Source: Patescibacteria group bacterium
GTDB taxonomy: Bacteria; Patescibacteriota; Patescibacteriia; JACRDY01
Direction: 5' to 3'
Assembly: GCA_041653535.1 (NCBI GenBank)
Contig: JBAZFH010000005.1
Location: forward strand, 12,012-76,011
DNA: 64,000 nucleotides
A model generated the notes under the pieces. The model searched no databases. It was not told where the DNA came from and worked only from the letters and a program-made list of their open reading frames with translations. Position 1 is the first letter of the stretch, and each line of letters opens with the position of its first letter. Both the position numbers and the translations under genes were made by a program. Below are positions 12,408 to 48,602 of this stretch, in pieces.

Positions 12408-13205
12408 ATGAAACTGCGAAATATCTTGTTAACGATTATAATCGCCATTATCAGCATTGTTACAATCTTTTCTTGCGACAAAAAAGACGAAAGTGATGAC
12501 GACGGTGACGACGAAATGTGTATCAAATGTCACTCTACTTCAGAGTGCGTTTCATCTTTCGGTCAGGGCTGGGGTTGCGTTGACGACTGCTGTCTCGATA
12601 CCAACATCCCGCCCACCGATGATGATAATGACAATAACGACAACGGAGACCTGATCAACATCGCCCTTGGTCAGCCGGTTATTATCACCGACAACGGAGT
12701 CTGGGAAGTAAACAACGGCTCGACCGGTTATCTCACCAATGGCAAAATTGATGGTGACACCGTCGGCTATCAAAACTTTAACACCAACGAAGCGGGCGAA
12801 GTGACTATCACCGTCACTCTCCTTCAAAAATATCGAATCCAAAAAATCAGTTATAACCAAGGCAACTGTCTGCGAGCTGACGTTTGGAATGCCGATCTTA
12901 TGACCACTCCGTTCGGCACGACAGGAACGTTAGCCGGAACTCCTCACCACGGTGCCTGGACCAGTCACACCGGCGAAACCGTTACCAACCATGTGGCTAT
13001 TATTCTCACCAAAACCCGGCTGGACTGGAAAACTGATTGGTTGTCGATCGGTGAAATACAAATCTGGGCAAAACCGCAACCCGTCGGTGATGATGATTCG
13101 ATGAGTGACGATGATACCGGAGATGACGATAACAACAACGATGATAATAACGACAACAATGACAATAACAACGATAATGACGTGACTACGACTGACACCC
13201 ACTAA
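12408..13205 (+). CDS. secreted lipoprotein with Cys-rich and poly-Asp/Asn low-complexity tracts and a discoidin/galactose-binding-like beta domain
   Basis: Signal peptide plus lipobox (IVTIFSC). DDDGDD... and DNNNDDNNDNNDNNNDND tracts. Central domain ending SIGEIQIWAKP resembles F5/8 type C domains. Terminator at 13218-13248. Confidence 0.55.
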   Translation: MKLRNILLTIIIAIISIVTIFSCDKKDESDDDGDDEMCIKCHSTSECVSSFGQGWGCVDDCCLDTNIPPTDDDNDNNDNGDLINIALGQPVIITDNGVWEVNNGSTGYLTNGKIDGDTVGYQNFNTNEAGEVTITVTLLQKYRIQKISYNQGNCLRADVWNADLMTTPFGTTGTLAGTPHHGAWTSHTGETVTNHVAIILTKTRLDWKTDWLSIGEIQIWAKPQPVGDDDSMSDDDTGDDDNNNDDNNDNNDNNNDNDVTTTDTH

Positions 13206-13354
13206 ATTCACTCATTCAACCGGTCGCCTAAAAACGTCCGGTTTTTTGTTTAAAAAAGAAATAATTGTCATAGAGACGATTCATGAATTGCCCCTACAGA
13301 CATCAAAAAATAACCTTGCAAATAGCCAATTTTAGTGATAAACTGATAATTACT

Positions 13355-16300
13355 ATGACGGAAAACAATACCAAAAAAACTATACCCCAAAGCGAAGAAG
13401 AAATTCAGAAGTTTTGGCGGGATAATCAAATTTTCGAAAAATCAATAAATCAAGAAGCGCCGCATGGCGACTATATTTTTTATGATGGCCCGCCTTTTGC
13501 TACCGGCACGCCACACTATGGTCATATCGTGGCGAGTTTGATGAAAGACGTCGTCCCCCGCTACTGGACCATGAACGGCTGGCGAGTGGAGCGTAAATGG
13601 GGTTGGGACTGCCACGGTCTGCCGATCGAAAACATTGTCGAAAAAGAACTCGGCACTCATAGTAAAAAAGAAATCGAGGATAAAGTTGGTGTGGCCAAAT
13701 TTAACGAAAGCTGCCACAGCAAAGTCATGCTTTATGCTGACGAATGGAAAAAGTTTATCCCACGCCTCGGCCGCTGGGTTGATATGGAAGACGACTACAA
13801 AACCATGGACCAACGCTACATGGAAAGTATCTGGTGGGTGTTCAAACAACTCTGGGATAAAGGTTTGATTTACCAAAGCTACAAAGCAATGCATATCTGT
13901 CCGCGCTGCGAGACCACTCTTTCCCAATCAGAAGTCAGCGAAGGCTACAAAGATATCACTGATATTTCTGTGACAGTAAAATTTCAGTTAGTTGATGAAC
14001 CAAATACTTATATTCTGGCTTGGACTACTACGCCATGGACACTAGCCGGCAACATTGCGCTAGCTGTTGGCGCCAACGTGCCATATATTAAAGTAAAGTT
14101 TGATGATGGTAATTTTTATATTTTAGCTAAAGACACCGCGGAAAAAACTTTGACCAATGTTAAACATGAATTGGTTGAGGAACTAACCGGTAAAGATTTG
14201 GTTGGTAAATCCTATATCCCGCTTTTTCCTTACTACGACAAACCGGAAAATAAAGAACGCGGTTTTAAAGTCTACGCTGCTGATTTTGTTACTACTACTG
14301 ACGGTACCGGCGTAGTTCATATTGCTCCGGCTTTTGGCCAAGACGATATGAATCTAGGTATGGCAGAAAAACTGCCTTTCGTCCAACATGTTAATATGGA
14401 AGGTCGCTTCGCTCCGGAAGTTACCGACTTTTCCGGCGAGTTAGTCAAACCAATCGAAGATCCCAAAGCTACCGACCGCAAAATTATTGCTTGGCTGGAA
14501 AAAGAAGGTAAACTATTTGCGCAAGCAGAATACACTCACTCCTATCCTCACTGCTGGCGCTGCGACACTCCGCTACTCAACTACGCCACCTCTTCTTGGT
14601 TTGTTTCTGTGACCAAAATCAAAGACAAAATGTTGAAGGCAGCTAAAAAAATAAACTGGGTGCCGGCTTATCTAAAAGAAGGTCGTTTTGGCAAATGGCT
14701 TGAAGGCGCTACCGACTGGTCTATTTCTCGCCAGCGTTTTTGGGGTTCGGTCATGCCGATCTGGCAGTGTACCAAATGTAAAGAAAATCTGGTTTTTGGT
14801 TCGATCGAAGATTTGCGACAAGCAGCATTAGAACAAATTACTAAATTAATCTTGGTTCGTCACGGTGAAAGCCAAAAAAATGACAGTGGTGTTTTTGATT
14901 CTAGTCTCGATAGCACTTTTGAACTGACCAAAGACGGCATTAAACAAGCTAAGGCCGCGGCCAAAAAAATCGCCGCAGAAAATAAAGATAATAATGTCGT
15001 TATCTACGCTTCACCGGTGCTACGTACCAAACAGACTGCGGAAATTATCGCCAAAGAGCTTTCTCTTGGTATTAACTGGGCGCCAGAGCTAAAAGAAATC
15101 GACAACGGCAACTGGGATGGTAAAACAAAAGACGACCCAAACATTGCCGCTTCCCGAGCTGCTTACAAAAAATTAAACCTAGAAGAACAATACACCGCCA
15201 AACGCGGTGAAACCGGTGAATCATGGAAAGAACAAGAAGACCGAATGTATAACTTTGTCAGAACTGTTCTAGAAAAAGAAATTGGCAAAACCATCATTTT
15301 GGTTGGTCATCAGGGTCCGCTGCTTTATTTACTCAAATCGATTGAAGACTTGAGTCTAGAAAAGATCTACAAACTTTTTGACTCTCCGGCTTGGAATAGC
15401 TACGCCTATCCGATGAACGTTTATGTTAACCAAAAAACTCAAAAGCAGTTTGATCTGCATAAACAGACTGTTGATCCGATCGAAATCCGCTGTCCCAAAT
15501 GCGACCAACTGGCAAAACGTATTCCCGATGTACTCGACTGTTGGTTTGAGTCCGGGTCCATGCCTTATGCTCAACTTCATTATCCTTTTGAAAACAAAGA
15601 AAAGTTTGAAAGTAATTTTCCGGCAAAATTTATTGCCGAAGGCGTTGACCAAACTCGCGCCTGGTTTTATTACCTATTAGTTATCTCTACTGCCATCATG
15701 GATGAGGCGCCTTTTGAAAACGTGATTGCTAACGGTATTGTGCTAGCCGAAAACGGTCAGAAGATGAGCAAGCGGCTCAAAAATTATCCTGATCCAAACG
15801 CAGTTATCGATCGCTTTGGTGCCGACGCTATGCGCTACTACCTACTCACCTCTCCGGTGGTAAAAGCCGAGACACTAAACTTTTCCGAACAAGGCGTCGA
15901 GGAAACCTACAAAAAATTAATCATGATTTTATCCAATGTCTTTTCGTTTTATCAGATGTACGGTGCTGTCGAGACAGTTGCCGCCGATGACTCAACAAAT
16001 ATTTTGGATCGCTGGATACTGGCAAAACTAAATCTACTGATTGAAGAAACTACTAAACAAATGAACGCCTACGATCTAGTCGCCGCTTCCCGACCGATTA
16101 TTGAATTTGTCGACGAATTATCGACTTGGTTTGTCCGCCGCAGCCGCGATCGCTTCAAAGGCGATGATGCCACTGATAAACAAAACGCCTTGCAAACACT
16201 AAAATACGTTTTACTGACTCTAAGCAAAATCATGGCGCCGTTTACGCCGTTTATTGCTGAAAAAATTTACCGTGAAATTGGCGGACAAAAAGAATCAGTA

Positions 16301-16828
16301 CATCTGGACGTCTGGCCGCAGGTTAATAAAAAATTGATCGACCAAACATTACTTGATCAAATGACTCTAGCCCGACAAATCGTCGAAGCTGGACTAGCTG
16401 CTCGCGCGACTACCGGGATCAAGATTCGCCAACCGTTACTTTCTTACTCCACCACTCTGACCAAAAAACTTTCAGATGAACTGATTGATATTCTAAAAGA
16501 CGAACTAAACGTTTTGGATATTAAATTCGGTGAAGATAAACTTGATACTACTATGACACCGGAACTAAAAGAGCAGGGTTTGGTCCGCGAACTAGTGCGC
16601 TTCATCAACGCTTTGCGAAAAAATGCTGGCCTGACTATCTCTGACCGCGTGACCGTTTACTATCAAACCGACAACCAGGAAATTAACGACGTTTTCACCA
16701 AATTCTCCGACCAGCTCGCCAAAGACACTTTGGCTAGTAGTCTAAAAAATGAAAAAGCCGAAGTGGCGGAAAACTGGCAATCCGAAGTAAAAATTAATGA
16801 AACTAAAGTCTGGTTGGGATTAAAATAG
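13355..16828 (+). CDS. ileS: isoleucyl-tRNA synthetase (type 2/eukaryote-like) carrying an inserted histidine-phosphatase (RHG) domain
   Basis: HIGH motif (PHYGH), WSISRQRFWG, CWFESGSMPYAQLHYPFEN and KMSKR. Start at MTENNTKK aligns with type-2 IleRS N-termini. A roughly 198-aa insertion at 14846-15440 carries LILVRHGESQKN...YASPVLRTKQTAEII...ILVGHQGPL. Confidence 0.93.
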   Translation: MTENNTKKTIPQSEEEIQKFWRDNQIFEKSINQEAPHGDYIFYDGPPFATGTPHYGHIVASLMKDVVPRYWTMNGWRVERKWGWDCHGLPIENIVEKELGTHSKKEIEDKVGVAKFNESCHSKVMLYADEWKKFIPRLGRWVDMEDDYKTMDQRYMESIWWVFKQLWDKGLIYQSYKAMHICPRCETTLSQSEVSEGYKDITDISVTVKFQLVDEPNTYILAWTTTPWTLAGNIALAVGANVPYIKVKFDDGNFYILAKDTAEKTLTNVKHELVEELTGKDLVGKSYIPLFPYYDKPENKERGFKVYAADFVTTTDGTGVVHIAPAFGQDDMNLGMAEKLPFVQHVNMEGRFAPEVTDFSGELVKPIEDPKATDRKIIAWLEKEGKLFAQAEYTHSYPHCWRCDTPLLNYATSSWFVSVTKIKDKMLKAAKKINWVPAYLKEGRFGKWLEGATDWSISRQRFWGSVMPIWQCTKCKENLVFGSIEDLRQAALEQITKLILVRHGESQKNDSGVFDSSLDSTFELTKDGIKQAKAAAKKIAAENKDNNVVIYASPVLRTKQTAEIIAKELSLGINWAPELKEIDNGNWDGKTKDDPNIAASRAAYKKLNLEEQYTAKRGETGESWKEQEDRMYNFVRTVLEKEIGKTIILVGHQGPLLYLLKSIEDLSLEKIYKLFDSPAWNSYAYPMNVYVNQKTQKQFDLHKQTVDPIEIRCPKCDQLAKRIPDVLDCWFESGSMPYAQLHYPFENKEKFESNFPAKFIAEGVDQTRAWFYYLLVISTAIMDEAPFENVIANGIVLAENGQKMSKRLKNYPDPNAVIDRFGADAMRYYLLTSPVVKAETLNFSEQGVEETYKKLIMILSNVFSFYQMYGAVETVAADDSTNILDRWILAKLNLLIEETTKQMNAYDLVAASRPIIEFVDELSTWFVRRSRDRFKGDDATDKQNALQTLKYVLLTLSKIMAPFTPFIAEKIYREIGGQKESVHLDVWPQVNKKLIDQTLLDQMTLARQIVEAGLAARATTGIKIRQPLLSYSTTLTKKLSDELIDILKDELNVLDIKFGEDKLDTTMTPELKEQGLVRELVRFINALRKNAGLTISDRVTVYYQTDNQEINDVFTKFSDQLAKDTLASSLKNEKAEVAENWQSEVKINETKVWLGLK

Positions 16829-18426: not shown

Positions 18427-18558
18427 GATTAATTCTGAACATTACAAAAAATAGCTGTTTCTAAATAGCGGTAACCCGCCTTGTGTGGGTTGCTGCTAGC
18501 TAGAAATAGCTATTTAATAACGAAAAACCATTAACCGGATAACCAGGAGGTTACCAGC

Positions 18559-19353
18559 ATGGCAAAGCGTTACTACCGGCTGCAAGTCGGAACCAACGAT
18601 TACATCCCCCGGGTCGACGGCCTGTCCAACCCGAACGAGCCGCAGCACCAGCTGCAGGCCCGTGGCGAAGACGGTCGTTTCATCGACAACGACATCCTTA
18701 TTTCGATGACGTTTGACGATGAAATGCTCCGTAACGGGGAAGTCTTTGGCTTCCACATCATCGGTGTCATGAAGCCGATAGCCGACGAAGATGATGAGCT
18801 CATGGTCGATCTGCAAAAGAGTTTGGAAGAAAAAGAAATGGCGGCGCGTGATCATGAGCGCTATTTGCTGGAAAAACACCTTGAGGGTTTCGAAGTGATC
18901 GATGCCAACGGCAAGCAGGTCTATGACCTCGATTGCTATGATGACGAACCGTTCGACGACAAAAAATCCGATTGCTACGACGATCTTGAGACTAACGAAA
19001 CGCGAATCGCCGAAGCCGACCGCCGGCAAAAAAATCATATCCGAGACCATTTGGAGTGGCGCCGTGACGGAAGGGTCAAGAGCAGACGATTCGAAAGCAC
19101 ACCGCCCAGTCAAAAAGGACTGGAAATCAAACGCGCGCAAAAGATCGGTGCCGAAATGCGTTGGTACGGCTTTTCGGATGACCCCTGGCGCTTCTACGAA
19201 GTACCGGAACGGCGACCGAAAGCATTCACCATCTGGACAGCTCTCCGGTTGGTGAATAAAAAGTTTCAAATCAACCAACCGACCATGTTACGGCGAACTC
19301 TTTTCGCCGGAATTCCGACGGCGAATAGTTCGTTCCACGTCGCCCATGCGTAA
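18559..19353 (+). CDS. hypothetical acidic protein (264 aa), GC-rich relative to host
   Basis: AGGAGG SD 8 nt upstream. GC-rich third-position codon bias on the plus strand. The antisense 254-aa ORF is judged spurious. Confidence 0.5.
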   Translation: MAKRYYRLQVGTNDYIPRVDGLSNPNEPQHQLQARGEDGRFIDNDILISMTFDDEMLRNGEVFGFHIIGVMKPIADEDDELMVDLQKSLEEKEMAARDHERYLLEKHLEGFEVIDANGKQVYDLDCYDDEPFDDKKSDCYDDLETNETRIAEADRRQKNHIRDHLEWRRDGRVKSRRFESTPPSQKGLEIKRAQKIGAEMRWYGFSDDPWRFYEVPERRPKAFTIWTALRLVNKKFQINQPTMLRRTLFAGIPTANSSFHVAHA

Positions 19354-19434
19354 GTGGATGGACTATAGACAAGCAATTTTACCCCACCAACAGCGACACA
19401 TCTGTCGCAATCACTAATTCATCACTACAGCCAC

Positions 19435-19465
19435 GCCCCGCGCCTAAAAACGCGGGGTTTTTGCT
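19435..19465 (+). terminator. Rho-independent terminator (ccccgcgcctaaaaacgcgggg + T5)
   Basis: Hairpin plus T-run. Confidence 0.65.
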
Positions 19466-30539: not shown

Positions 30540-33500
30540 TTACGGTTTTTCGTTATATTCCTGTCCCTCGCCGACATCAATATTCAATCTTGTTTCAAAA
30601 TCAGCCGGGCTGCCGATGATCTCTGTATTGCGAACAAAAGTTCCTGCTTCGCGCAAAACTATATTACGGTCGGGAAAAAAAGTATAACGAACATCCCGAC
30701 CGGGAGCACTGACCTCAAAACCAATACTGTTATCAGCTTTATTTTCTTCGATACTTTTAATAACAGCGTTTTCTCCTAAACTATATTGCCCCAAATTGAA
30801 ACCTCGGCTGGACAGCAAGGCATCAATATATGTTTTAGCATTTGATGTTTTTATAAAATCGACAGAAAAACGTTCGGTATCAATCCATGTTTCAATAAAT
30901 TTTTGTGCTTGAGAATCGGTCACAAATTCCTCTCTGATTATATTTTCGGCGTTGGTAGTGATCACTCCTTCGGTATCAGCCACAATCGCACGAATGGCCG
31001 TATCAAGATGGCTAGCAGGAAAGTATTGATCTTTTCCGATACGATTAATTTTTACGCTGCTGGTCTTGCTGTCGATTATTAAATCATCCCTGGCACCGGA
31101 ATCATAACCAGCCGCGTGCAGTCCTGAGATCTCCAGCCTGCCGTGTTTAGCCGTAATCATCGGCTCATCGTCAAACTCTAATCCGCCGACATTTAAAAAT
31201 TCTCTCAAATGCAAATTATTCACTGAAGGATTGGCATAAATCGATGCCAATATAAATCCTTTCTTAGCGTCAACACTGCGCAGACTTTGAGAAAACTCTA
31301 GTCCGCTTCTTATTTCGTTCGGATTATAAGACTCTTTTATTAAATTTTGAGCAATCTCGCATTGTGATCTATTACCTAATAAATTAACGTCGCCGCCGCT
31401 TTTTTCTACAAACCGGCTTACTTCTTCGATCTTTGGTTCTCCTAAATAATGATCAACAGCAAAGCGAACATCACTGATTAATTGATTGGCTTTACTGTTG
31501 TCAATTTGATATTCCTTTGTTACCGAATCACGAATATCAATAATTTCTTTAATATATTGATTAATATTCCTAACGTCGGTTTTATTAATAGAAACTTCGG
31601 CTAAAGTCTGAGCATGTACTACTTCGCTACCAAACATCACATAAACCTTGGAACCACCTTCTGTTTCCACCCGAGCCAAACGTAAATTTTGTTCTGACGA
31701 TACAGTAATGCCATACTCTGCCGGATTCAACACCTCTAATTTTGCGGCATCGCTTATTTCCACGCCTTCATTGGTTAAGACTCGCGTAATATCTTCTGTG
31801 TTGATTGATTCAATATTTATTTCCGGGGAAGGAGCGGAGTATTGGTCATAATTTTGGAGAATATCGCCAAAATTATTAGTTTTTCCTTCCGGTAACCGTA
31901 AACCTTCCGCCTTTACTAACTTACCGTCATCACTCAAATAGACACCGCTGCCGCTGCCGTCTAAAGCTTTGACCAAGACATTTTTTGAACCAGCCCCATC
32001 GACTCTAAAAGCACGACCGTTAGATTGAAAAATAAAACTTTTGTCCGGACCGATCTTGATACTTTGGATAGTATCGCGATTAACCTGTAATCGTTCTTGC
32101 AAATAATTGAGGCGTAAAGTTTCTTCTGACACTCGACGCGCGTCCGCGACACCAACGCCTTTAATAATATCTATTGCTCCATTATTAGCAATAATCATTC
32201 TATTGCCGGCGTAAGCAAGATTTTCTTCGCGAGCAGCGGCAACGCCGATAGCTTTATCAATCAAAGATTGGTTTACCTCGTCTCCGTCCCCCGAAAGGAC
32301 ATCTTCACCTAAATAATTTTTGACAAAAGCCGTCGCTAGGCGCGAGTCATAATTACTGCTTTTTTCATCTAGTTGATCGTGCAATATTTTAGTTAAGGTG
32401 TCACCTTGTTTTACCACCGCAACTCGGTTAGTTTGTATTATATTATCGATTTCCTTAAAATCGCCTTTGGCAAATATCTTGTTTAGTTCTTCCAATGATT
32501 CCCGGGAGCTGTCGCCGCTCAAAGACCCTGGACCACCCAATGCTTTTTCCATATTTTGCAGAATGAGTGCCGCATTATCAGTCTGCAATATGTAGTTGAT
32601 TATATCTTGATCGGCATTTGGCAGTGCTGAAATTTTACTGATAACATCGACAACATTTCTATCACTCTGATCAAAAATACCATCTTTGACCAAACCATAA
32701 ACCACGTATTCCCGTGATCCCTCCGGTAAATTTTTCACTGCTGCGATTGCTTCGTTTAATTGACTCGCTGTTTCCGGCTCTATACCTCCCCGGGATAATT
32801 TCTCCAATAAAGCAATCTGAATCTCCGGTGATTTAATTTTAGTGGCGGTCTCGACTAAGCCACTCACTCTGCTGATAGCCTCAGGCGAGAACCCGTCCTT
32901 TGCTATAGCTGACACCGTATAACCTTCGACCTGTTGGCTGATTTTACCGTGCAAATTAGCAACCAGAGTACCGGCAGCCTCTATCTGTTCTTTTTGCAAC
33001 CCGCTATTAGCTAAAGAGTTGATAATATTAGATTTTTCCGTATCATCAGAAATATCTTTTACAATCGAAAAAACATCATCCAGCCGCTGGTTCACTTCAT
33101 TAACCCCTTCGATATTATTGATACCGCCGACAAAAGATTCTGGTAAAGCGGCTCGCTGTAAATTCTCGTCTAATTTCACTAAAGATACGATTTCTTGTTC
33201 ATTTATGCGACCGTCTTTGGCGATATTGTTTACCGTGTCCTCTGACAAAATACTAAGTTTAGGCATCACTTCAGCCGTACTCTGACCGGCCCAATCGGAC
33301 AAGGTTTTTACCCCGGTATCATTCCCTATGACACCGGCTACCTCCCGCAAGCTCCCCGCCACTTGTTGTGAAAAACCCCTCACCTGCGATAAAGTCTTAT
33401 TTTCAGAAATTTCTCTAAAAACATCTTTGCTGGCCTGAGATTGAAAAACCGGCTTGACAGTGTGATCGCCGCCCAGCCATTGACCCAGCTCTTGTATTGC

Positions 33501-36500
33501 TTCCGGACCAAGCAAGGCTCCGGCAGCGGCACCTACCGCCTGTGAAGCACCGATAATTATTTTTCTATGTTTTTCCAGATTTTTTCTGCGCAAAAAATTG
33601 CTTTCCAGGTCGTTGGTTATCTGTTGAACCGTCTCGGTTAATTTTTTAGCATTTTTTATCTTTAAAGTCGTAAAATATTCCACCTTTTCCCGCAGCCGAA
33701 CGTAATCTCCAGGGTGCTGTTTTTTAAATTTCTGATCCAAAAGTTGCGCTCGAGCTCTAGCCATCAGTTGATCATTGACGTTATCCTTGTTTAGTTGTTC
33801 GGCGGTGATAAATCCTAATTCTCTAAAACCACCCATCTTACTGGTTGCCAGTATAGCGGCGCTTTCAAAAGCTTTGGCTCCAGAATAAGCAAAAAGTCCC
33901 TGGCGGACAGCCGGCATAGTACGCGCCAACATACCGGCAAAAGTAAATACTGCGGCTGTTTTCATTTTTTCTTTTGCCGTTGTACCGCCGCTCCATAGTG
34001 ATTTTAATGAATCCGGCAAAACCCGATCGAGCCAGGAAAAACTTTTTTCCAAAACACCAGGAGCCCGATCCGCTATTTTTGCCTCCATCACCGCAGTGCT
34101 GCGATCCACCGCTAACAACGCTCTGACCTGATCTAATATTTTATCAATATTTTCCGCAGGCATTTCGGTATTTTCCAGTTTTTTCCGGATATCGTCCAAA
34201 TAAACAGAAGATTGCATATCAATAAGTTTTTCATACCTGACGTAATCATTATTTTTTCTGGCTTTATTTTTTTCTTGATCAAAATCGGCAAAAACCCTTT
34301 CTTGTCGATCGATTTGATGCTGCTTACTAATAGCTAAGTCGGCTGTTAGATTGGCAACGAGTAAATTCAGCCACTGTTGTCCCTCAGGAGAATCTTTGCT
34401 TATTTCTCTTTTTATTTTTTTTAAATTGTCGCTTAGCTCCCGTTCGGATCTACCTCCGGAAATTTTAGCGTCAATCATACGTACCACTCCCATACTCAAC
34501 GCTCCGCCGACTCCACCGGTTGCTAAAGTGGCGACTGTCCCTATCCCGGCGTACATTCCGATTTTTCCCGTTACTTTTCCCGCTCCTTTTAGCTTGCTCC
34601 AAAAACCACGCTTAGTGTCGGTTCTGCCTAGTTGTTTTGCCAGCTCTGTCAGTTCTTGCTCCCTGCGATCAATGCTCCGATAAATATCATCTTGATCTAA
34701 ACCAGTCAAATCTAAAAAATTTTTGGCAAGATTATTTAATCCGCTGCCAGAAGTCAATATTTCTTTTAAAAGCTGGCTTATTTCTTCAACCACTCTTTGG
34801 TCGCGAAAAAATTCTTTACTGTTAGCAAATTTGGCTTGTTGCAAAGGTTTAGTTAACTCCTCATAATCAGCTCCCGGCATCGCCATCCTGATCTTCGCCT
34901 CATTAATTATCTCACGGATATCCTTGTTTTTTTCTTTAGGAGCGGCTAAATATCTTTTTATCAAATCGAGCAGATCTTTATATTTTTGCTCCGCCCGGAC
35001 TAGAGTTTCAATATTTTCCAGCGTTGCTTCACGCTGATACCACTCTCTGGCGTTAGACACGTCTTCCCGCAAAAGATAGACCTCTTTTTCCAAGGGAAAT
35101 TCCGGCCATTTATTTTTTATAAAACCAAACATTTCTTCGCTAAGGACAGACAATTGTTTCGCCTGGTCTACCAGCGATTCTATCGCATCTTTTGAACCTA
35201 CCATACTTTTTTTCTCTGCCGTTCCTGATTCTATATTATTTTTATTTTCTTCCGTCGTTTCTAGAGAATAATCAATTTTTTTATCATTAAAAAAATCTTT
35301 AATGTTATTGATCAAGCCAGGCGTGCGGCGTTCAACAAAATCTAAATAAATCTGAGTATTTGCCGGATTATCAAAATCAAAATCTGGGCTGTTTATTTTT
35401 TTAACATCCGCATAATACTGTTGTATTGCCAAACCTACCGGGTCGTTTTCAGAAAAATTGGAAAAATCGTGATGTTTTTTCAAAACAGACAAAAGTTTAT
35501 CCGCTTCTTGTCGAACGGCTAAAAATCTTTCCTTCAACTCGCCTCCTTCTTTTTCGATAGCCGTCTCTCCTGGATTTATTTGCCATTGAGCTAAAGTATC
35601 TAAAGAAAAATCATGATTTAAAAATGATTCTCCCATACGATGAGCGGTCACCATGCCATCATTTTCATCAACCTCTTTGATTATCCAGTCATTTTCATAT
35701 TGTCCATTGATAAAAACTCTTACCATGTCGCCGGCTATTAACACGCCGTTGGCGACCCTTTCCCAATTCTCTTTCTGGTTATCATGAGCCGCCTTTATAA
35801 TTTCTTTCATTTTTTTCTCTGTTTCATCTATCTCTCCAGTAGACAATTTCGCCAAAAATTTTTGATCAAATCCATTATTAATAAAAGACTCTCTCTGTCC
35901 ATAATCCTGCGGGGACAGAAAATAGGTCAATTCCGACGGCATCTCTTTCAATACAATAAATCTATCAAGCAACCGTTCCACTGCTTGTTTATGTTCTTTA
36001 GGATTATTAATAGAATCCAAAGACGTTGCTCCTTTATCTAACCCCTTTTCTGGCAAGCGGTCCCGTACTACTAATCGAGCGATCTCATCCGCCTCTCGTC
36101 CACTTATTATTGATTCTTTTTTTATGCCCTTCACTACATAATCGCTATCGCTAAATTCAGGAAAATCATAATTTTGTATCGTTTCTTCGGTGGAGATTAT
36201 TTTACCGTCGCCATTTTGACGGATAACATTCTCTCCGGACGCAATGCCAAATTTTTGGGGGTGGAAAGTACTTACTTCCTTACTACCGGCGTTGACATCT
36301 ACCGCAACGTCAAAATCACCGGATGCGGCCGCTTTTTTTAGCATCTCGGCTTCTTTATCGCTCAATCTTCGTTCCACCGGTTTTGGGATATTAGCGGGAC
36401 GAGACTTTTCCTGAGCTGATATCGCTGTATTATTTGCCCCACTTAAAGCTTCGTTTGTAACATCTATTTCTTCCCTTTCTGGTGGTTTTTTTTCCGTATT

Positions 36501-37757
36501 AACAGTCGGTGAAATATTACCGCGAGCAGCCACCCTGGCGTTTTCCCATTCTAAAACTCCTTCCTCCACTTCGCCCTCTCCTGCCAATCGAAACATATCT
36601 CCCACTCGAGACATGTGTTCCGCTAATGATTTGAAATCTTTACCCTGAACGTGTCTTTGCGGCGGAACAGTATCCCGCGTACGAGGAAGAGGCGGCTCTT
36701 TTTTTGCCTTATCTTTTATAAAAGAAGCTAATCCTTTTATTAATACCTCTTTTTGCTGATCGCTAAAATATGTTTTTTGAGGTTTTGTTTCTGGTCCAGC
36801 TTGTTCTACGGGAGCTACCTGGATGTTCGGATCATTCGATACAATATTTTGTTCTTTTTTATCCTGTTCTTTTTTCCAAAGATCATAATCATCGGCAGTA
36901 GCCGCAATAGATTGACCGACAAATTCTTTTTTACCCCTACCAATAGCCAAATAATCACCGCTGACCGCCAATTCCTTCAACTTGTCAGAGTCGAGCTCGT
37001 CTTTTAACTCCCAAAATTTTTCACCCCAAAGCTTGTTATTTTGCACTATTTCTTTCATGTCTTCCTGATCTGGCCGACTTTCCAACCCCCGTAAAATACG
37101 ACCGCCGCCCAAGATAAAAAGCTTAAGCGCCTCACTATATCTTTTTCTCCACTCACCGACGCCGATTTCTGTTTTTTTATTTTCGTCATCAAGCACGGCA
37201 AGCGCCTGACTGGCAATAAAAAATTCTCTGATCTCTTGTTTTACGAAAGTAGTAGTGCGTTTGTTTTTTAAAACTTTTGACAACATAGCCCATAGATTTT
37301 TGGCCTCTTTTTCTTGGATCAGCAAATTTTCATCCTCTTTTTTTTCCATGTCTTCCAAAACCGCCTGATCTCTTGCTTGCCGCTGCAATACTTGTTCTAG
37401 CTGAAAAAATTTTTCCACCAGCTTACTGCCGATTTTTACGATAGTTTTCAATCTTTTCACGTCAGTAACGCTGATATTTTTTTGCTTATTTAAAAAATCA
37501 TCTATTTCTTGCTTAAGATTTTTATCTTTAACTAAAAACTCGCTCTTACTATGAGCGGCAAGATTTTCAAATATTCTTTTTAAATCCGCTTCCAGCTTTG
37601 CTTCTTTTAAATCGTTTCTTTCTTGCGCGGAATTTCCAGATGGTTGACACTTCCCCTTCTTTTTATCTTCAATCCTCTTCCTGCCAGATGCCTTATGGTC
37701 TTCCAGCCTTTCTTTTTGTTTATCTTGGAAACCACCTGATGGTTTTGGCTCTCGCAT
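30540..37757 (-). CDS. giant hypothetical protein (2405 aa), highly charged/coiled-coil with a central Gly-zipper hydrophobic hairpin
   Basis: Single uninterrupted ORF. No N-terminal signal peptide. Gly-rich segment GKVTGKIGMYAGIGTVATLATGGVGGALSMGVV. No recognisable catalytic motifs. Confidence 0.75.
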   Translation of the reverse strand: MREPKPSGGFQDKQKERLEDHKASGRKRIEDKKKGKCQPSGNSAQERNDLKEAKLEADLKRIFENLAAHSKSEFLVKDKNLKQEIDDFLNKQKNISVTDVKRLKTIVKIGSKLVEKFFQLEQVLQRQARDQAVLEDMEKKEDENLLIQEKEAKNLWAMLSKVLKNKRTTTFVKQEIREFFIASQALAVLDDENKKTEIGVGEWRKRYSEALKLFILGGGRILRGLESRPDQEDMKEIVQNNKLWGEKFWELKDELDSDKLKELAVSGDYLAIGRGKKEFVGQSIAATADDYDLWKKEQDKKEQNIVSNDPNIQVAPVEQAGPETKPQKTYFSDQQKEVLIKGLASFIKDKAKKEPPLPRTRDTVPPQRHVQGKDFKSLAEHMSRVGDMFRLAGEGEVEEGVLEWENARVAARGNISPTVNTEKKPPEREEIDVTNEALSGANNTAISAQEKSRPANIPKPVERRLSDKEAEMLKKAAASGDFDVAVDVNAGSKEVSTFHPQKFGIASGENVIRQNGDGKIISTEETIQNYDFPEFSDSDYVVKGIKKESIISGREADEIARLVVRDRLPEKGLDKGATSLDSINNPKEHKQAVERLLDRFIVLKEMPSELTYFLSPQDYGQRESFINNGFDQKFLAKLSTGEIDETEKKMKEIIKAAHDNQKENWERVANGVLIAGDMVRVFINGQYENDWIIKEVDENDGMVTAHRMGESFLNHDFSLDTLAQWQINPGETAIEKEGGELKERFLAVRQEADKLLSVLKKHHDFSNFSENDPVGLAIQQYYADVKKINSPDFDFDNPANTQIYLDFVERRTPGLINNIKDFFNDKKIDYSLETTEENKNNIESGTAEKKSMVGSKDAIESLVDQAKQLSVLSEEMFGFIKNKWPEFPLEKEVYLLREDVSNAREWYQREATLENIETLVRAEQKYKDLLDLIKRYLAAPKEKNKDIREIINEAKIRMAMPGADYEELTKPLQQAKFANSKEFFRDQRVVEEISQLLKEILTSGSGLNNLAKNFLDLTGLDQDDIYRSIDRREQELTELAKQLGRTDTKRGFWSKLKGAGKVTGKIGMYAGIGTVATLATGGVGGALSMGVVRMIDAKISGGRSERELSDNLKKIKREISKDSPEGQQWLNLLVANLTADLAISKQHQIDRQERVFADFDQEKNKARKNNDYVRYEKLIDMQSSVYLDDIRKKLENTEMPAENIDKILDQVRALLAVDRSTAVMEAKIADRAPGVLEKSFSWLDRVLPDSLKSLWSGGTTAKEKMKTAAVFTFAGMLARTMPAVRQGLFAYSGAKAFESAAILATSKMGGFRELGFITAEQLNKDNVNDQLMARARAQLLDQKFKKQHPGDYVRLREKVEYFTTLKIKNAKKLTETVQQITNDLESNFLRRKNLEKHRKIIIGASQAVGAAAGALLGPEAIQELGQWLGGDHTVKPVFQSQASKDVFREISENKTLSQVRGFSQQVAGSLREVAGVIGNDTGVKTLSDWAGQSTAEVMPKLSILSEDTVNNIAKDGRINEQEIVSLVKLDENLQRAALPESFVGGINNIEGVNEVNQRLDDVFSIVKDISDDTEKSNIINSLANSGLQKEQIEAAGTLVANLHGKISQQVEGYTVSAIAKDGFSPEAISRVSGLVETATKIKSPEIQIALLEKLSRGGIEPETASQLNEAIAAVKNLPEGSREYVVYGLVKDGIFDQSDRNVVDVISKISALPNADQDIINYILQTDNAALILQNMEKALGGPGSLSGDSSRESLEELNKIFAKGDFKEIDNIIQTNRVAVVKQGDTLTKILHDQLDEKSSNYDSRLATAFVKNYLGEDVLSGDGDEVNQSLIDKAIGVAAAREENLAYAGNRMIIANNGAIDIIKGVGVADARRVSEETLRLNYLQERLQVNRDTIQSIKIGPDKSFIFQSNGRAFRVDGAGSKNVLVKALDGSGSGVYLSDDGKLVKAEGLRLPEGKTNNFGDILQNYDQYSAPSPEINIESINTEDITRVLTNEGVEISDAAKLEVLNPAEYGITVSSEQNLRLARVETEGGSKVYVMFGSEVVHAQTLAEVSINKTDVRNINQYIKEIIDIRDSVTKEYQIDNSKANQLISDVRFAVDHYLGEPKIEEVSRFVEKSGGDVNLLGNRSQCEIAQNLIKESYNPNEIRSGLEFSQSLRSVDAKKGFILASIYANPSVNNLHLREFLNVGGLEFDDEPMITAKHGRLEISGLHAAGYDSGARDDLIIDSKTSSVKINRIGKDQYFPASHLDTAIRAIVADTEGVITTNAENIIREEFVTDSQAQKFIETWIDTERFSVDFIKTSNAKTYIDALLSSRGFNLGQYSLGENAVIKSIEENKADNSIGFEVSAPGRDVRYTFFPDRNIVLREAGTFVRNTEIIGSPADFETRLNIDVGEGQEYNEKP

Positions 37758-47489: not shown

Positions 47490-48602
47490 ATGGACATTGA
47501 CCTGCAAAGGGTATACGACATTATTTTTGGCTCGGTGCGAGCTGAAGACGTATTTGGCGATCTTATTGATCGTCAAAACAAAACGTCCAAAGAACAGTTG
47601 TTGGAAGCCGTTTACGCCGACCTGGCCGCAATCGTTGATCCAAAAAAGTACACCTATCCGGATGACCGAGAATTTGCCGCTGATGCCCAGTTCAAACTGA
47701 AAACTTTCTACGAGAAAGCCAAGGAAAAACTGGCCAGCGGATTCTATGGCGCGACCGCCAATCCCAGTATCCATGTCTCTCGCGGACGACCAGCTTTTGC
47801 AACCGAAAAAAGATCGTACTACCTTGGTCAACCAATCGCCGAAGGCGACATAGCCACCATTTATGTTGGCGACTGCGTCATGGGCGATGACTTTGCTGGC
47901 CGCGTGGCGATTAAAATCGTCAACGATCCGGCTGACAACGACCTGGCCCGCAACGAGATCCGGGCTCTGACCGAGCTGCACTCCAAAAAAGGCGCTCAAC
48001 GCAAACATCTGCCGATACTGCTCGACAATTTTTTGACTGAAGACGACCAAGTTGGTTTGGTGTTTCGATTCTTAGACGATAGCTACGATCTGCTGGCCGT
48101 TAAGGAAAAATATCCTCGCGGCGTTGATCGCAAGCATATGGTCTGGATGCTCAACCGGCTACTGTCTGCTGCTGGCTATGCCCACAACTGGGGCATGGTC
48201 CACGCTAACATCGAGCCGAGCAACCTGATGGTTCGTCCACAAAACCACAATCTGTTCATGATCGACTGGACCAGTGCGGTGATCCGACCGGCCGAAACCG
48301 GCGACACTTTCAAAGTCTACAACCCTGAATTTAGCGCGCCGGAAGTCAAAGAAGGAGGTCCTGCAACACCAGCTTCGGACTTATATTCGATTGGCAAGTG
48401 CATGATCTATATCCTCGGCGGCAATGTCGAAGACAATACCATGCCCGACACAGTCGAAGAAGAACTCCAACGCTTTATCCATTTCCTGGTTTTGGAAAGT
48501 CAGGGTGGACGAGCGCAAGATGCCTGGAAAATGCATCATAAACTCATCTCTTTAGTCGAAGGACTTTGGGGACCAAGAAAATTTCTGGTCTTCAGCATGT
48601 AA
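47490..48602 (+). CDS. protein-kinase-like protein with degenerate catalytic loop (HAN in place of HRD)
   Basis: VAIK present (RVAIKIV). HANIEPSNLMV replaces HRDLKPEN. DWT replaces DFG. SAPE and DLYSIGKCMIY are conserved. Confidence 0.55.
   Translation: MDIDLQRVYDIIFGSVRAEDVFGDLIDRQNKTSKEQLLEAVYADLAAIVDPKKYTYPDDREFAADAQFKLKTFYEKAKEKLASGFYGATANPSIHVSRGRPAFATEKRSYYLGQPIAEGDIATIYVGDCVMGDDFAGRVAIKIVNDPADNDLARNEIRALTELHSKKGAQRKHLPILLDNFLTEDDQVGLVFRFLDDSYDLLAVKEKYPRGVDRKHMVWMLNRLLSAAGYAHNWGMVHANIEPSNLMVRPQNHNLFMIDWTSAVIRPAETGDTFKVYNPEFSAPEVKEGGPATPASDLYSIGKCMIYILGGNVEDNTMPDTVEEELQRFIHFLVLESQGGRAQDAWKMHHKLISLVEGLWGPRKFLVFSM

What the first reader, a model, noticed from the sequence alone, without database searches (positions are those of the whole stretch)
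14846..15440. Histidine-phosphatase (RHG) domain inserted in-frame within isoleucyl-tRNA synthetase
Between the WSISRQRFWG/zinc-knuckle region and CWFESGSMPYAQ the IleRS carries about 198 extra residues. They bear the full branch-1 histidine-phosphatase signature (LILVRHGESQKN, YASPVLRTKQTAEII, ILVGHQGPL), as in PGAM/SixA/CobC. It is not an intein: no Cys/Ser and His-Asn junctions. A phosphatase domain embedded in an aaRS catalytic core is highly unusual and may add editing, regulatory or moonlighting activity.
Basis: seen in the sequence. Interest (0 to 1): 0.7.

Follow-up and report, generated by a model that had tools for sequence, protein, structure and literature searches.

The report
Active phosphatase nested inside isoleucyl-tRNA synthetase
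The isoleucyl-tRNA synthetase of this candidate-phyla-radiation bacterium carries a complete, apparently active phosphatase enzyme spliced into one of its surface loops; the same design recurs in many related uncultured bacteria, is kept by selection, has not been described in the papers I could search, and its substrate is unknown.

Summary
One uninterrupted ORF (13283/13355..16828, +) encodes a type-2 IleRS (TIGR00392, E 6e-270). A branch-1 histidine phosphatase domain (PF00300, E 1e-34) is nested at ORF aa ~512-723, between the two Cys pairs of the zinc-binding CP3 subdomain.

It is not an artefact or an intein. An identical protein is deposited (MFA5359155.1). 69 of the 120 best homologues and 46 of 72 species-representative genome loci, all Patescibacteria-type, carry the domain at exactly this site.

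- **Host:** IleRS synthetic and editing motifs are intact.
- **Evolution:** distribution is patchy, and the insert appears to move or be swapped between ileS alleles.
- **Variants:** relatives have 2 to at least 4 tandem copies, a second insertion site, and MutT-like NUDIX domains inserted at two other sites.

Best reading: an accessory, autonomous phosphomonoesterase docked on IleRS, probably acting on a nucleotide-type small substrate. tRNA 3'-end repair or inhibitor detoxification remain open. I judge it a new variant of a known kind; function is untested.

The parts
13355..16828 (+). ileS gene: type-2 isoleucyl-tRNA synthetase with nested phosphatase. The ORF is open from 13283; the deposited protein starts at M25 = 13355.
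   Evidence: ORF. TIGR00392 E 6e-270, 898 bits against a cut-off of 621. 100% identical to P0121 = MFA5359155.1. Model pLDDT 91.8, pTM 0.84. Foldseek TMt 0.92 to 1ILE and 0.84 to 8C8V.
13514..13525 (+). HIGH signature (HYGH, aa 78-81) of the synthetic site
   Evidence: Coordinates. H54, G56 and H57 (NCBI numbering) are invariant or nearly invariant in 80 aligned relatives.
14021..14338 (+). CP1 editing domain core motifs (WTTTPWT aa 247-253; GTGVVHIAPAFG aa 341-352)
   Evidence: Coordinates. W223, T224-T226 and W228 are invariant; H322 is at least 90% conserved.
14717..14746 (+). CP2-CP3 linker WSISRQRFWG (aa 479-488). The equivalent stretch in yeast IleRS lines the tRNA A76 / reveromycin pocket.
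   Evidence: Coordinates. Homologous stretch ARDWNVSRNRYWG described in PMC7955072.
14747..14815 (+). N-terminal half of CP3: first Cys pair of the zinc knuckle (C496, C499; 14768-14779) and the start of the helix GSIEDL
   Evidence: Both Cys are invariant in 69 carriers and 51 insert-free relatives. CP3 is zinc-binding in T. thermophilus IleRS (PMC7191050).
14816..15451 (+). The insert (aa 512-723): linker plus a complete branch-1 histidine phosphatase domain (Pfam match aa 522-698 = 14846-15376) plus a terminal strand and linker
14858..14863 (+). R526-H527 of the RHG motif; H527 is the predicted phospho-accepting nucleophile
   Evidence: 69/69 carriers for each residue. Retained in every complete tandem and second-site copy.
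14879..14881 (+). N533, phosphate-pocket residue
   Evidence: 69/69 carriers.
15023..15025 (+). R581, second phosphate-binding arginine
   Evidence: 69/69 carriers.
15095..15097 (+). E605, predicted general acid/base
   Evidence: 66/69 Glu and 3/69 Asp.
15308..15310 (+). H676, second catalytic histidine
   Evidence: 69/69 carriers.
15452..15538 (+). C-terminal half of CP3: the DLHK helix and the second Cys pair (C737, C740; 15491-15502)
   Evidence: Both Cys invariant in carriers and insert-free relatives. Alignment.
15539..15775 (+). Second half of the Rossmann fold, from CWFESGSMPYAQ (aa 753-764) to KMSKR (aa 827-831)
   Evidence: Coordinates. W730, F731, S733, G734, K803 and K806 (NCBI numbering) are invariant.
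15947..16015 (+). Loop between the stem-contact fold and the anticodon-binding domain (aa 889-911). It is empty in this window but is the second His_Phos insertion site in relatives P0246, P0264 and P0294.
13976..14011 (+). CP1 entry hairpin (VKFQLVDEPNTY, aa 232-243). It is empty here but is the site of a MutT-like NUDIX insertion in relatives P0138, P0203 and P0239.

Best explanation
The gene encodes the working type-2 IleRS of a Patescibacteria (CPR) bacterium. A complete, catalytically competent branch-1 histidine phosphatase of about 200 aa has been nested into the tip loop of the zinc-binding CP3 subdomain of this IleRS.

**Shown.** The nesting is real. Both enzymes keep all their signature residues. 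The insert is under purifying selection as strong as the host's. The architecture is widespread but patchy in Patescibacteria. The insert folds as a compact, confidently modelled lobe.

**Inferred.** The lobe works as an autonomous phosphomonoesterase. H527 would take the phosphoryl group. R526, R581, N533 and H676 would hold it. E605 would protonate the leaving group. The domain belongs to the capped PspA/GpgP/PhoE/CobC structural type, not the minimal SixA type, so its substrate is most likely a small soluble phosphomonoester. I favour a nucleotide-type substrate, because relatives independently add MutT-like NUDIX pyrophosphohydrolase domains to the same IleRS, which would give a pyrophosphatase-then-phosphatase pair.

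The module is accessory to aminoacylation, since very close IleRS lack it. It behaves as a cassette that is lost, duplicated and exchanged between ileS alleles, with IleRS serving as a scaffold and expression vehicle.
For: **Nesting and identity.**

**Host intact.** HIGH, KMSKS, the editing motifs and the four CP3 Cys are invariant. The model superposes on type-2 IleRS.

**Insert active by sequence.** R526, H527, N533, R581, E646 and H676 are 69/69; E605 is 66/69. Every complete tandem or second-site copy keeps the set, apart from one N->A.

**Selection.** dN/dS for insert against body is 0.039/0.029, 0.053/0.046, 0.057/0.085 and 0.086/0.105 in four pairs.

**Rigid lobe.** pLDDT is 92-97 through the insert and both linkers, and pTM is 0.84 for the 1157-aa model.

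**Accessory and cassette-like.**
- 51 of 120 closest IleRS lack the insert, and carrier state needs about 11 changes on the body tree.
- The query's body is 68.5% identical to insert-free proteins but 57.4% to the carriers whose inserts are closest to its own (47.9%).
- In L003/L004 the body dN is 0.10 but the insert dN is 0.46.

**Nucleotide hint.** NUDIX domains with an intact Nudix box are inserted at two different sites in His_Phos-bearing IleRS.

**Geometry not fixed.** Relatives have a second His_Phos site about 170 aa downstream in IleRS body coordinates (query aa 890-905) and arrays of 2 to at least 4 copies.
Against: No activity or substrate has been measured, and the insert reaches no curated equivalog cut-off, so 'small nucleotide-type substrate' is inference.

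Host specificity is striking. 36 of 37 long proteins among the insert's 150 closest relatives in 1.84 billion representatives are IleRS. Hydrolase domains were also recruited to IleRS several times independently. Both facts argue for a functional tie to IleRS chemistry, meaning tRNA(Ile), Ile-AMP or IleRS inhibitors, and against a mere scaffold role.

The apparently rigid docking next to the CP2-CP3 linker that lines the A76 pocket is also compatible with coupling. I could not read model coordinates, so the orientation of the phosphatase pocket relative to the IleRS sites is unknown.

No free His_Phos gene neighbours ileS in insert-free genomes, so there is no Rosetta-stone support.
Confidence: 0.5

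Rival explanations
1. On-enzyme tRNA 3'-end repair. [quoted passage not shown] Such a block could be left by a toxSAS/CapRel-type toxin or by a nuclease. NUDIX would cut PPi to P, and His_Phos would remove the last phosphate.
For: - The insert sits in CP3, directly after the CP2-CP3 linker that lines the tRNA A76 pocket.
- A NUDIX plus phosphatase pair matches the two steps this chemistry needs.
- The host is exclusively IleRS.
- Patchy, cassette-like spread is typical of conflict-related modules.
- tRNA-specific CCA pyrophosphorylation by toxSAS is established (10.1101/2021.04.30.441581; PMC11559606).
Against: - The fold is the capped small-molecule type, not an open protein- or RNA-end phosphatase.
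- A repair function restricted to one of about 20 synthetases is odd.
- The second His_Phos site lies at the junction with the anticodon-binding domain, which should be far from the CCA end.
- No toxSAS or related gene was seen in the ORFs of at least 150 aa that I scanned up to position 50117; ORFs beyond 50117 were not scanned.
- No histidine phosphatase is known to act on tRNA ends (my own knowledge).
Confidence: 0.13
2. Built-in self-protection against IleRS-targeting antibiotics. The hydrolase domains would destroy a phosphorylated or nucleotide-like inhibitor, such as an adenylate mimic, at the enzyme it targets. This would be analogous to MccE/RimL-type GNAT detoxification of aminoacyl-adenylate mimics, and possibly to the curated 'ileS_w_GNAT' architecture.
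For: - Host specificity for IleRS.
- Independent recruitment of different small-molecule hydrolases, with His_Phos at two sites and NUDIX at two sites.
- Tandem amplification.
- Patchy distribution and cassette exchange, as expected under an arms race.
- A small-molecule pocket type.
- NCBIfam lists an IleRS with a GNAT domain (NF040702).
Against: - No natural phosphomonoester inhibitor of IleRS is known to me; mupirocin, thiomarinol and SB-203207 carry no phosphate.
- I found no paper linking ileS_w_GNAT to resistance.
- The query is not MupA/MupB-like (749-761 bits against a cut-off of 1900).
Confidence: 0.1
3. Protein phosphatase or regulatory module. The domain would dephosphorylate IleRS itself or a partner (pHis, pSer or pThr), for example to counter kinases that silence aaRS, as SixA, PGAM5 and the MutT1 C-terminal domain act on proteins.
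For: - Branch-1 members include protein phosphatases. The MutT1 RHG domain dephosphorylates sensor kinases (PMC12407098) and SixA acts on Ndk (PMC12934123).
- The window encodes two Hanks-type kinases.
- The NUDIX plus RHG pairing mirrors MutT1.
Against: - The kinases lie about 30 kb away and are unlinked.
Confidence: 0.08
4. A known metabolic enzyme simply fused to IleRS. The insert would be the cell's phosphoserine phosphatase (PspA), alpha-ribazole phosphatase (CobC) or dPGM, relocated into ileS in a streamlined genome.
For: The best sequence and structure matches are PspA, CobC, PhoE, GpgP and dPGM. CPR genomes are small and gene-poor (my own knowledge).
Against: - All curated equivalog cut-offs are missed by a wide margin: PspA 86 against 350, CobC 85 against 163, archaeal dPGM 84.5 against 225, pgm_1 43 against 82.
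- The closest free-standing relatives are only about 35% identical.
- Close relatives do without the insert, and no free copy lies beside their ileS.
- Arrays of 2 to at least 4 active copies are hard to explain for a housekeeping step.
Confidence: 0.12
5. Artefact or selfish element: an assembly chimera, a frameshifted two-gene fusion, or an intein-like mobile insertion.
For: The sequence comes from a metagenome assembly. Some database fragments are indeed chimeric (P0013 and P0023).
Against: - IleRS sequence continues in the same frame on both sides of the insert.
- An identical protein is deposited independently by two sources.
- The architecture is present in more than 100 distinct clusters and 46 species-representative genomes at the same residue-level site.
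- There is no intein domain, no flanking repeats and no composition break.
- The insert is under strong purifying selection.
Confidence: 0.01

Closest known systems
Type-2 ('eukaryote-like') bacterial IleRS with a zinc-binding CP3, e.g. Thermus thermophilus IleRS (1ILE) and Priestia megaterium IleRS2 (8C8V)
   Same: The domain order is the same: Rossmann N-half, CP core, CP1 editing, CP2, CP3, Rossmann C-half, anticodon-binding domain and DUF5915 C-terminus. HIGH and KMSKS are present, as is the 4-Cys CP3. TMt is 0.92 to 1ILE and 0.84 to 8C8V.
   Different: Here CP3 is split by an enzyme domain of about 200 aa. No solved or described IleRS has a catalytic domain in CP3. The query also does not reach the MupA/MupB resistance-IleRS cut-offs.
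Short capped branch-1 histidine phosphatases: PspA (4IJ5), GpgP (6S2Q), PhoE (1H2E), CobC (6E4B)
   Different: Sequence identity is only 22-27%. All curated family cut-offs are missed. Those enzymes are free-standing, whereas this domain is nested in another enzyme with both termini tied to a zinc knuckle.
Mycobacterial MutT1 (Rv2985): NUDIX N-terminal domain plus RHG histidine phosphatase C-terminal domain
   Same: Relatives of this IleRS (P0138, P0203, P0231, P0239) combine a MutT-like NUDIX domain and an RHG domain in one polypeptide. MutT1 shows that such a pair can act on nucleotides and on phosphoproteins (PMC11784022, PMC12407098).
NCBIfam NF040702 'isoleucine--tRNA ligase, N-acetyltransferase domain-containing' (ileS_w_GNAT)
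   Same: It is a curated example of an IleRS that carries an extra enzymatic domain.
   Different: The extra domain is a different one (GNAT), and the query scores 312 bits against a cut-off of 1999. I could find no publication on it.
CP1 editing domain of class Ia aaRS (IleRS, ValRS, LeuRS)
   Same: It is the classic case of a hydrolytic domain nested in the Rossmann fold of these synthetases. Domain-insertion surveys list aaRS as preferred hosts (PMC13114784).
   Different: CP1 is universal, ancient and acts on aminoacyl-tRNA. The His_Phos insert is lineage-specific, dispensable in sister lineages, chemically unrelated (a phosphomonoesterase) and sits in CP3.

Membership tests
Histidine phosphatase superfamily, branch 1 (Pfam PF00300) | Profile match above the gathering score | tested here: met
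   120.1 bits (E 1.3e-34) against a cut-off of 21.7. Insert alone: 125 bits.
Histidine phosphatase superfamily, branch 1 (Pfam PF00300) | RHG motif with the nucleophilic His, two phosphate-binding Arg, the second His and an acidic proton donor | tested here: met
   R526, H527, R581, H676 and N533 are 69/69 in carriers. E605 is 66/69 with 3 Asp.
Histidine phosphatase superfamily, branch 1 (Pfam PF00300) | Alpha/beta/alpha fold of the family | tested here: met
Histidine phosphatase superfamily, branch 1 (Pfam PF00300) | Phosphoryl transfer through a phospho-histidine intermediate | not testable with these tools
   Needs an enzyme assay with an H527A control.
Isoleucyl-tRNA synthetase (TIGR00392), type 2 | Equivalog HMM above the trusted cut-off | tested here: met
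   898 bits against a cut-off of 621.4, in two stretches flanking the insert.
Isoleucyl-tRNA synthetase (TIGR00392), type 2 | HIGH and KMSKS signatures and the CP1 editing motifs | tested here: met
   HYGH aa 78-81, KMSKR aa 827-831, WTTTPWT aa 247-253, GTGVVHIAPAFG aa 341-352. They are invariant or nearly invariant in 80 relatives.
Isoleucyl-tRNA synthetase (TIGR00392), type 2 | Overall structure of type-2 IleRS | tested here: met
   Foldseek E 1e-87 to 8c8v. TMt 0.92 to 1ile and 0.83-0.90 to 8wnd. Type-1 IleRS score lower, at 0.76-0.78.
Isoleucyl-tRNA synthetase (TIGR00392), type 2 | Being the cell's only, housekeeping IleRS | not testable with these tools
   Only 64-81 kb of the genome is available. 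There is no second ileS in the window, and each assembly gave one locus in the genome scan, but that scan was pattern-limited.
Phosphoserine phosphatase PspA (NF045917) | Equivalog cut-off | tested here: not met
   86.4 bits against a cut-off of 350. It is the best structural neighbour, but only 27% identical.
Alpha-ribazole phosphatase CobC (TIGR03162 / NF011580) | Equivalog cut-off | tested here: not met
   85 bits against 162.9, and 69.7 against 250.
Cofactor-dependent phosphoglycerate mutase (TIGR01258, NF038349) | Family cut-off | tested here: not met
   43.4 bits against 81.7, with only the N-terminal ~95 aa matched. 84.5 bits against 225.
Phosphohistidine phosphatase SixA (TIGR00249) | Equivalog cut-off and minimal cap-less fold | tested here: not met
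Mycobacterial MutT1 (NF052459) | NUDIX N-terminal domain plus RHG C-terminal domain, above the equivalog cut-off | tested here: not met
   15.9 bits against 475, and there is no NUDIX domain in the query. NUDIX is present only in some relatives.
Intein / Hint-type selfish insertion | Hint/intein domain with Cys/Ser/Thr at +1 and a His-Asn C-terminal junction | tested here: not met
   No intein or Hint family appears in the Pfam scan, and the whole insert is covered by His_Phos_1. The junctions read ...LEQITK|LILV... and ...KTQKQF|DLHK....
Mupirocin-resistance IleRS MupA/MupB (NF000257/NF000258) | Exception-model cut-off | tested here: not met
   749 and 761 bits against a cut-off of 1900.
ileS_w_GNAT (NF040702) | Exception-model cut-off and a GNAT domain | tested here: not met
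   312 bits against a cut-off of 1999, and no acetyltransferase domain was found.

The most novel reading that the evidence does not exclude
IleRS in many Patescibacteria may be a platform for an on-enzyme repair or defence system. Exchangeable hydrolase cassettes (His_Phos in CP3 or at the anticodon-domain junction, MutT-like NUDIX in CP1) would act on the enzyme's own ligands. They would either strip toxin-added phosphate or pyrophosphate from the tRNA(Ile) CCA end, or destroy nucleotide-like IleRS inhibitors. The patchy, swapped and amplified distribution would then be the trace of an arms race. This would be a new class of aaRS-embedded activity besides editing.
Probability: 0.2. Interest if true: 0.85.

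Novelty: new variant of a known kind. Interest (0 to 1): 0.62.

Why it matters
Class I synthetases are textbook examples of enzymes that gained function through nested domains, but the only nested catalytic module characterised so far is the editing domain. This IleRS carries a second, chemically unrelated enzyme. It is conserved under strong selection across dozens of uncultured species. Sister lineages add NUDIX domains, duplicate the phosphatase up to at least four times, or place it at a second site.

If the phosphatase acts on IleRS ligands (the tRNA 3' end, adenylate-like molecules or inhibitors), it would reveal a new layer of quality control or defence in translation. If it acts on an unrelated metabolite, it is a clear natural case of enzyme-in-enzyme fusion in streamlined CPR genomes, and it marks CP3 as a permissive site for engineering.

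Either way it can be tested directly with one recombinant protein and one point mutant. The finding also shows that annotation pipelines currently name these proteins either generically ('class I tRNA ligase family protein', NCBI) or as plain isoleucyl-tRNA synthetase (IMG), and in neither case mention the phosphatase.

Tried and rejected
**Rejected hypotheses**
- **Other enzymes in the same loop.** P0013 (RmlD/epimerase + IleRS) and P0023 (TMP-TENI + IleRS) looked like further inserts. They are fragments that join the start of another gene to mid-IleRS with a normal short CP3 loop, so they are chimeric or miscalled.
- **Rosetta-stone neighbourhood.** No free His_Phos gene lies within 3 kb of ileS in 72 genome loci, and there is only one trivial NUDIX neighbour.
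- **Docking-surface signal.** Body positions that co-vary with carrier state are spread over the anticodon-binding and C-terminal domains. The query carries the insert-free residue at most of them, so the signal is phylogenetic.
- **Mobile-element traces.** Only short chance repeats occur at the junctions, and there is no GC break.
- **The SB-203208 paper.** It describes separate IleRS-like and GNAT enzymes, not a fusion.

**Inconclusive**
- **Single versus multiple capture of the domain.** Domain distances are saturated (above 1.2), and the NJ tree gives about 20 embedded/free transitions that I do not trust.
- **Literature.** Ten searches found no description of IleRS with a histidine phosphatase or NUDIX insert. 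Subscription journals are not covered.

**Technical failures**
- Model coordinates are not readable by scripts, so no inter-site distances could be computed.
- The afdb50 fold library is unavailable.
Whether NUDIX-only IleRS exist is therefore unknown.
Full report
**Observation.** The window holds one uninterrupted ORF, 13283..16828 on the + strand, 1181 aa. The identical deposited protein starts at M25, which is window 13355. Pfam splits the class I synthetase domain in two (PF00133, E 2e-136) and places His_Phos_1 (PF00300) between the halves at aa 522-698, with E 1.3e-34 and 120 bits against a gathering score of 21.7. NCBIfam identifies the host as IleRS (TIGR00392, 898 bits against a cut-off of 621, matched in two stretches around the insert).

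**Anatomy.** I aligned the query with 120 full-length homologues. The stretch between WSISRQRFWG and CWFESGS is about 60 aa in 51 insert-free proteins and 240-267 aa in 69 carriers, always at the same position. Insert-free proteins read '...GS.EELEK.SG....DLHK...'. The query has aa 512-723 (window 14816-15451) between those two points. The insertion lies between the two Cys pairs (C496/C499 and C737/C740) of a four-Cys knuckle, and all four Cys are invariant in carriers and non-carriers alike. Published IleRS structures call this element the CP3 subdomain. It is zinc-binding in T. thermophilus IleRS, varies in topology between lineages, and links CP2 to the second half of the Rossmann fold (PMC7191050). 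The CP2-CP3 linker just upstream (ARDWNVSRNRYWG in yeast, WSISRQRFWG here) lines the tRNA A76 / reveromycin pocket (PMC7955072). In human IARS1, CP3 is a protein-interaction surface (PMC13439101).

**Structure models.** An AlphaFold2 model of the 1157-aa protein is confident throughout (pLDDT 91.8, pTM 0.84), with pLDDT 92-97 across the insert and both linkers. This suggests a docked lobe and not a floppy tether. Its body superposes on type-2 IleRS: TMt 0.92 to 1ILE, 0.83-0.90 to yeast IleRS-tRNA 8WND and 0.84 to P. megaterium IleRS2.

**Host integrity.** HIGH (HYGH), KMSKR, the WFESG strand and the CP1 editing motifs (WTTTPWT, GTGVVHIAPAFG) are present, and they are invariant or nearly so across 80 aligned carriers and non-carriers. 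By sequence criteria this is a working, editing-competent IleRS, so the phosphatase is an addition and not a replacement.

**The insert.** The catalytic set of branch-1 histidine phosphatases is essentially invariant in 69 carriers. R526, H527, N533, R581, E646 and H676 are 69/69, and E605 is 66/69 with Asp in the other three. This holds even though the insert as a whole diverges about 2.5 times faster than the body. In four carrier pairs with unsaturated dS, dN/dS of the insert is 0.039, 0.053, 0.057 and 0.086, against 0.029, 0.046, 0.085 and 0.105 for the body. Selection on the insert is therefore as strong as on an essential enzyme.

These rank ahead of true dPGM (20.2) and well ahead of the minimal protein phosphatases SixA (16.3) and the MutT1 C-terminal domain (about 15). 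Sequence searches give the same order. No curated equivalog cut-off is reached (PspA 86 against 350, CobC 85 against 163, archaeal dPGM 84.5 against 225, SixA 35 against 74.5). The closest free-standing proteins are only about 35% identical. It is a member of the superfamily but of no characterised family.

**Distribution.**
- Fragment and full-length searches return many distinct clusters with PF00133 plus PF00300, mostly labelled Patescibacteria, Paceibacterota, Buchananbacteria or Nealsonbacteria.
- 46 of 72 ileS loci recovered from species-representative genomes carry the insert. By record title they are Zambryski-, Sungii-, Taylor-, Adler-, Vogel- and Kaiserbacteria, Paceibacterota and Parcubacteria. 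Komeili-, Buchanan-, Gracilibacteria and Acidimicrobiia loci do not carry it.
- Among the 150 closest relatives of the insert in 1.84 billion representatives, 36 of 37 long proteins are IleRS. The host is specific.
- Public names are generic: 'class I tRNA ligase family protein' for MFA5359155.1 and 'isoleucyl-tRNA synthetase' at IMG.
- Ten full-text searches found no description of this architecture.

**Evolution.** On an NJ tree of the IleRS body with the insert removed, carrier state needs about 11 changes, and the query with P0122 nests in a mostly insert-free clade. The query's body is 68.5% identical to insert-free proteins, 61.1% to one carrier group (group B) and 57.4% to another (group A, P0129 and relatives). 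Its insert is 47.9% identical to that most distant group and 32.8% to the nearer one. The flanks stay insert-free-like up to the junctions. In L003/L004 the bodies are close (dN 0.10) but the inserts are not (dN 0.46). Either the domain is lost cleanly and often, or it is exchanged between ileS alleles as a cassette, and I consider both likely. There are no flanking repeats and no composition break.

**Variations in relatives.**
- Some IleRS have two, three or at least four tandem His_Phos domains in CP3 (P0219, P0248, P0255, P0259, P0269, P0249).
- Three (P0246, P0264, P0294) have a second copy in another loop, at query aa 890-905, between the stem-contact fold and the anticodon-binding domain.
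- All complete copies keep the catalytic set, apart from one N->A. Second copies of different proteins cluster together, so the duplication is old and retained.
- Four His_Phos-bearing IleRS also carry a MutT-like NUDIX domain with an intact Nudix box. It is inserted either in the CP1 entry hairpin (after query aa 236) or inside the editing domain (after about aa 318-327), which implies two independent events. One also has a C-terminal rhodanese.

**Mechanism.**
- *Shown:* a nested, selected, catalytically complete phosphatase on an intact IleRS, which is dispensable in sister lineages.
- *Inferred:* it acts autonomously through a phospho-H527 intermediate on a small phosphomonoester, because the fold is of the capped type. 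The substrate is most plausibly nucleotide-like, given the NUDIX partners and the analogy with the NUDIX plus RHG protein MutT1 (PMC11784022, PMC12407098). IleRS would serve as scaffold, since several sites and copy numbers are tolerated.
- *Against a pure scaffold role:* the strict host specificity and the repeated recruitment of hydrolases to IleRS.
- *Rivals:* two coupled readings therefore stay open. One is repair of (pyro)phosphorylated tRNA(Ile) 3' ends, a modification made by toxSAS toxins (10.1101/2021.04.30.441581; PMC11559606). The other is destruction of nucleotide-like IleRS inhibitors. A protein-phosphatase role and a simple relocation of PspA, CobC or PGM are less likely for the reasons given under each rival. 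An artefact is excluded.

**Limits.** There was no access to model coordinates, no complete genome, no activity data, and the search for NUDIX-only IleRS failed. The trees are distance-based and deep nodes are saturated.

**Verdict.** The finding is real and correctly interpreted at the domain level. It is a new, undescribed variant of IleRS architecture that is widespread in Patescibacteria, with an open and experimentally accessible question about what the embedded phosphatase does.

Noticed in passing
relatives P0138, P0203, P0239 (after query aa 236; window-equivalent 13976-14011) and P0231 (after query aa ~318-327): MutT-like NUDIX domains with intact Nudix boxes are inserted into the CP1 region of His_Phos-bearing IleRS at two different sites, implying independent events. 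Whether NUDIX-only IleRS exist is unknown.
   Followed up: partly
relatives P0219, P0248, P0255, P0259 (2 copies), P0269 (3 by Pfam), P0249 (at least 4, protein truncated): Tandem arrays of catalytically complete His_Phos domains sit in the CP3 loop of IleRS. Second copies from different proteins cluster together, so the duplication is old and maintained.
   Followed up: partly
relatives P0246, P0264, P0294; equivalent to window 15947-16015: A second His_Phos insertion site lies in the loop between the stem-contact fold and the anticodon-binding domain of IleRS. P0176 has an unrelated 45-aa insertion in the same loop.
   Followed up: partly
relative P0203, C-terminus (aa ~1317-1406): One IleRS carries NUDIX, His_Phos and a C-terminal rhodanese domain, making 1423 aa in all.
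   Followed up: no
loci L003 and L004: Two closely related IleRS (body dN 0.10) carry very different His_Phos inserts (dN 0.46). This suggests the insert was replaced without replacing the gene.
   Followed up: partly
window 30540-37757 (-): A 2405-aa ORF with no Pfam match at E <= 1e-4, lying next to glycosyltransferase genes.
   Followed up: no
window 12408-13205 (+): A 265-aa ORF directly upstream of ileS has an N-terminal hydrophobic segment, a Cys-rich stretch and long Asp/Asn-rich tails, with no Pfam match. It is probably a secreted or surface protein.
   Followed up: no
window 44144-46426 (+) and 47490-48602 (+): Two Hanks-type Ser/Thr protein kinase ORFs flank a uridine-kinase-like gene. 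They are relevant only as possible partners if the IleRS phosphatase were a protein phosphatase.
   Followed up: no
window 18500-19450: A local rise in G+C to 0.50-0.54, against about 0.42 around it. It coincides with two long overlapping ORFs on opposite strands (18514-19278 - and 18559-19353 +). The + strand ORF has no Pfam match; the - strand ORF was not scanned.
   Followed up: no
window 13283-13354: The ileS reading frame is open for 24 codons upstream of the deposited start. IMG calls the long form (1181 aa) and NCBI the short form (1157 aa). The conserved IleRS alignment begins after M25.
   Followed up: partly
loci L002, L039, L041, L045, L053, L070 and many 'Saccharibacteria' loci: Several species-representative MAGs whose ileS is clearly of the Patescibacteria type (54-66% identical to the query) are titled 'uncultured Gammaproteobacteria' or 'Saccharibacteria'. 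These record labels look unreliable. Likewise, the 1.3-kb fragment P0001 is labelled Methylomirabilis.
   Followed up: no
proteins P0251, P0252 and ~25 others: Free-standing proteins of 400-430 aa made of two tandem His_Phos domains are among the closest relatives of the insert. They could be donors or derivatives of the IleRS arrays.
   Followed up: no
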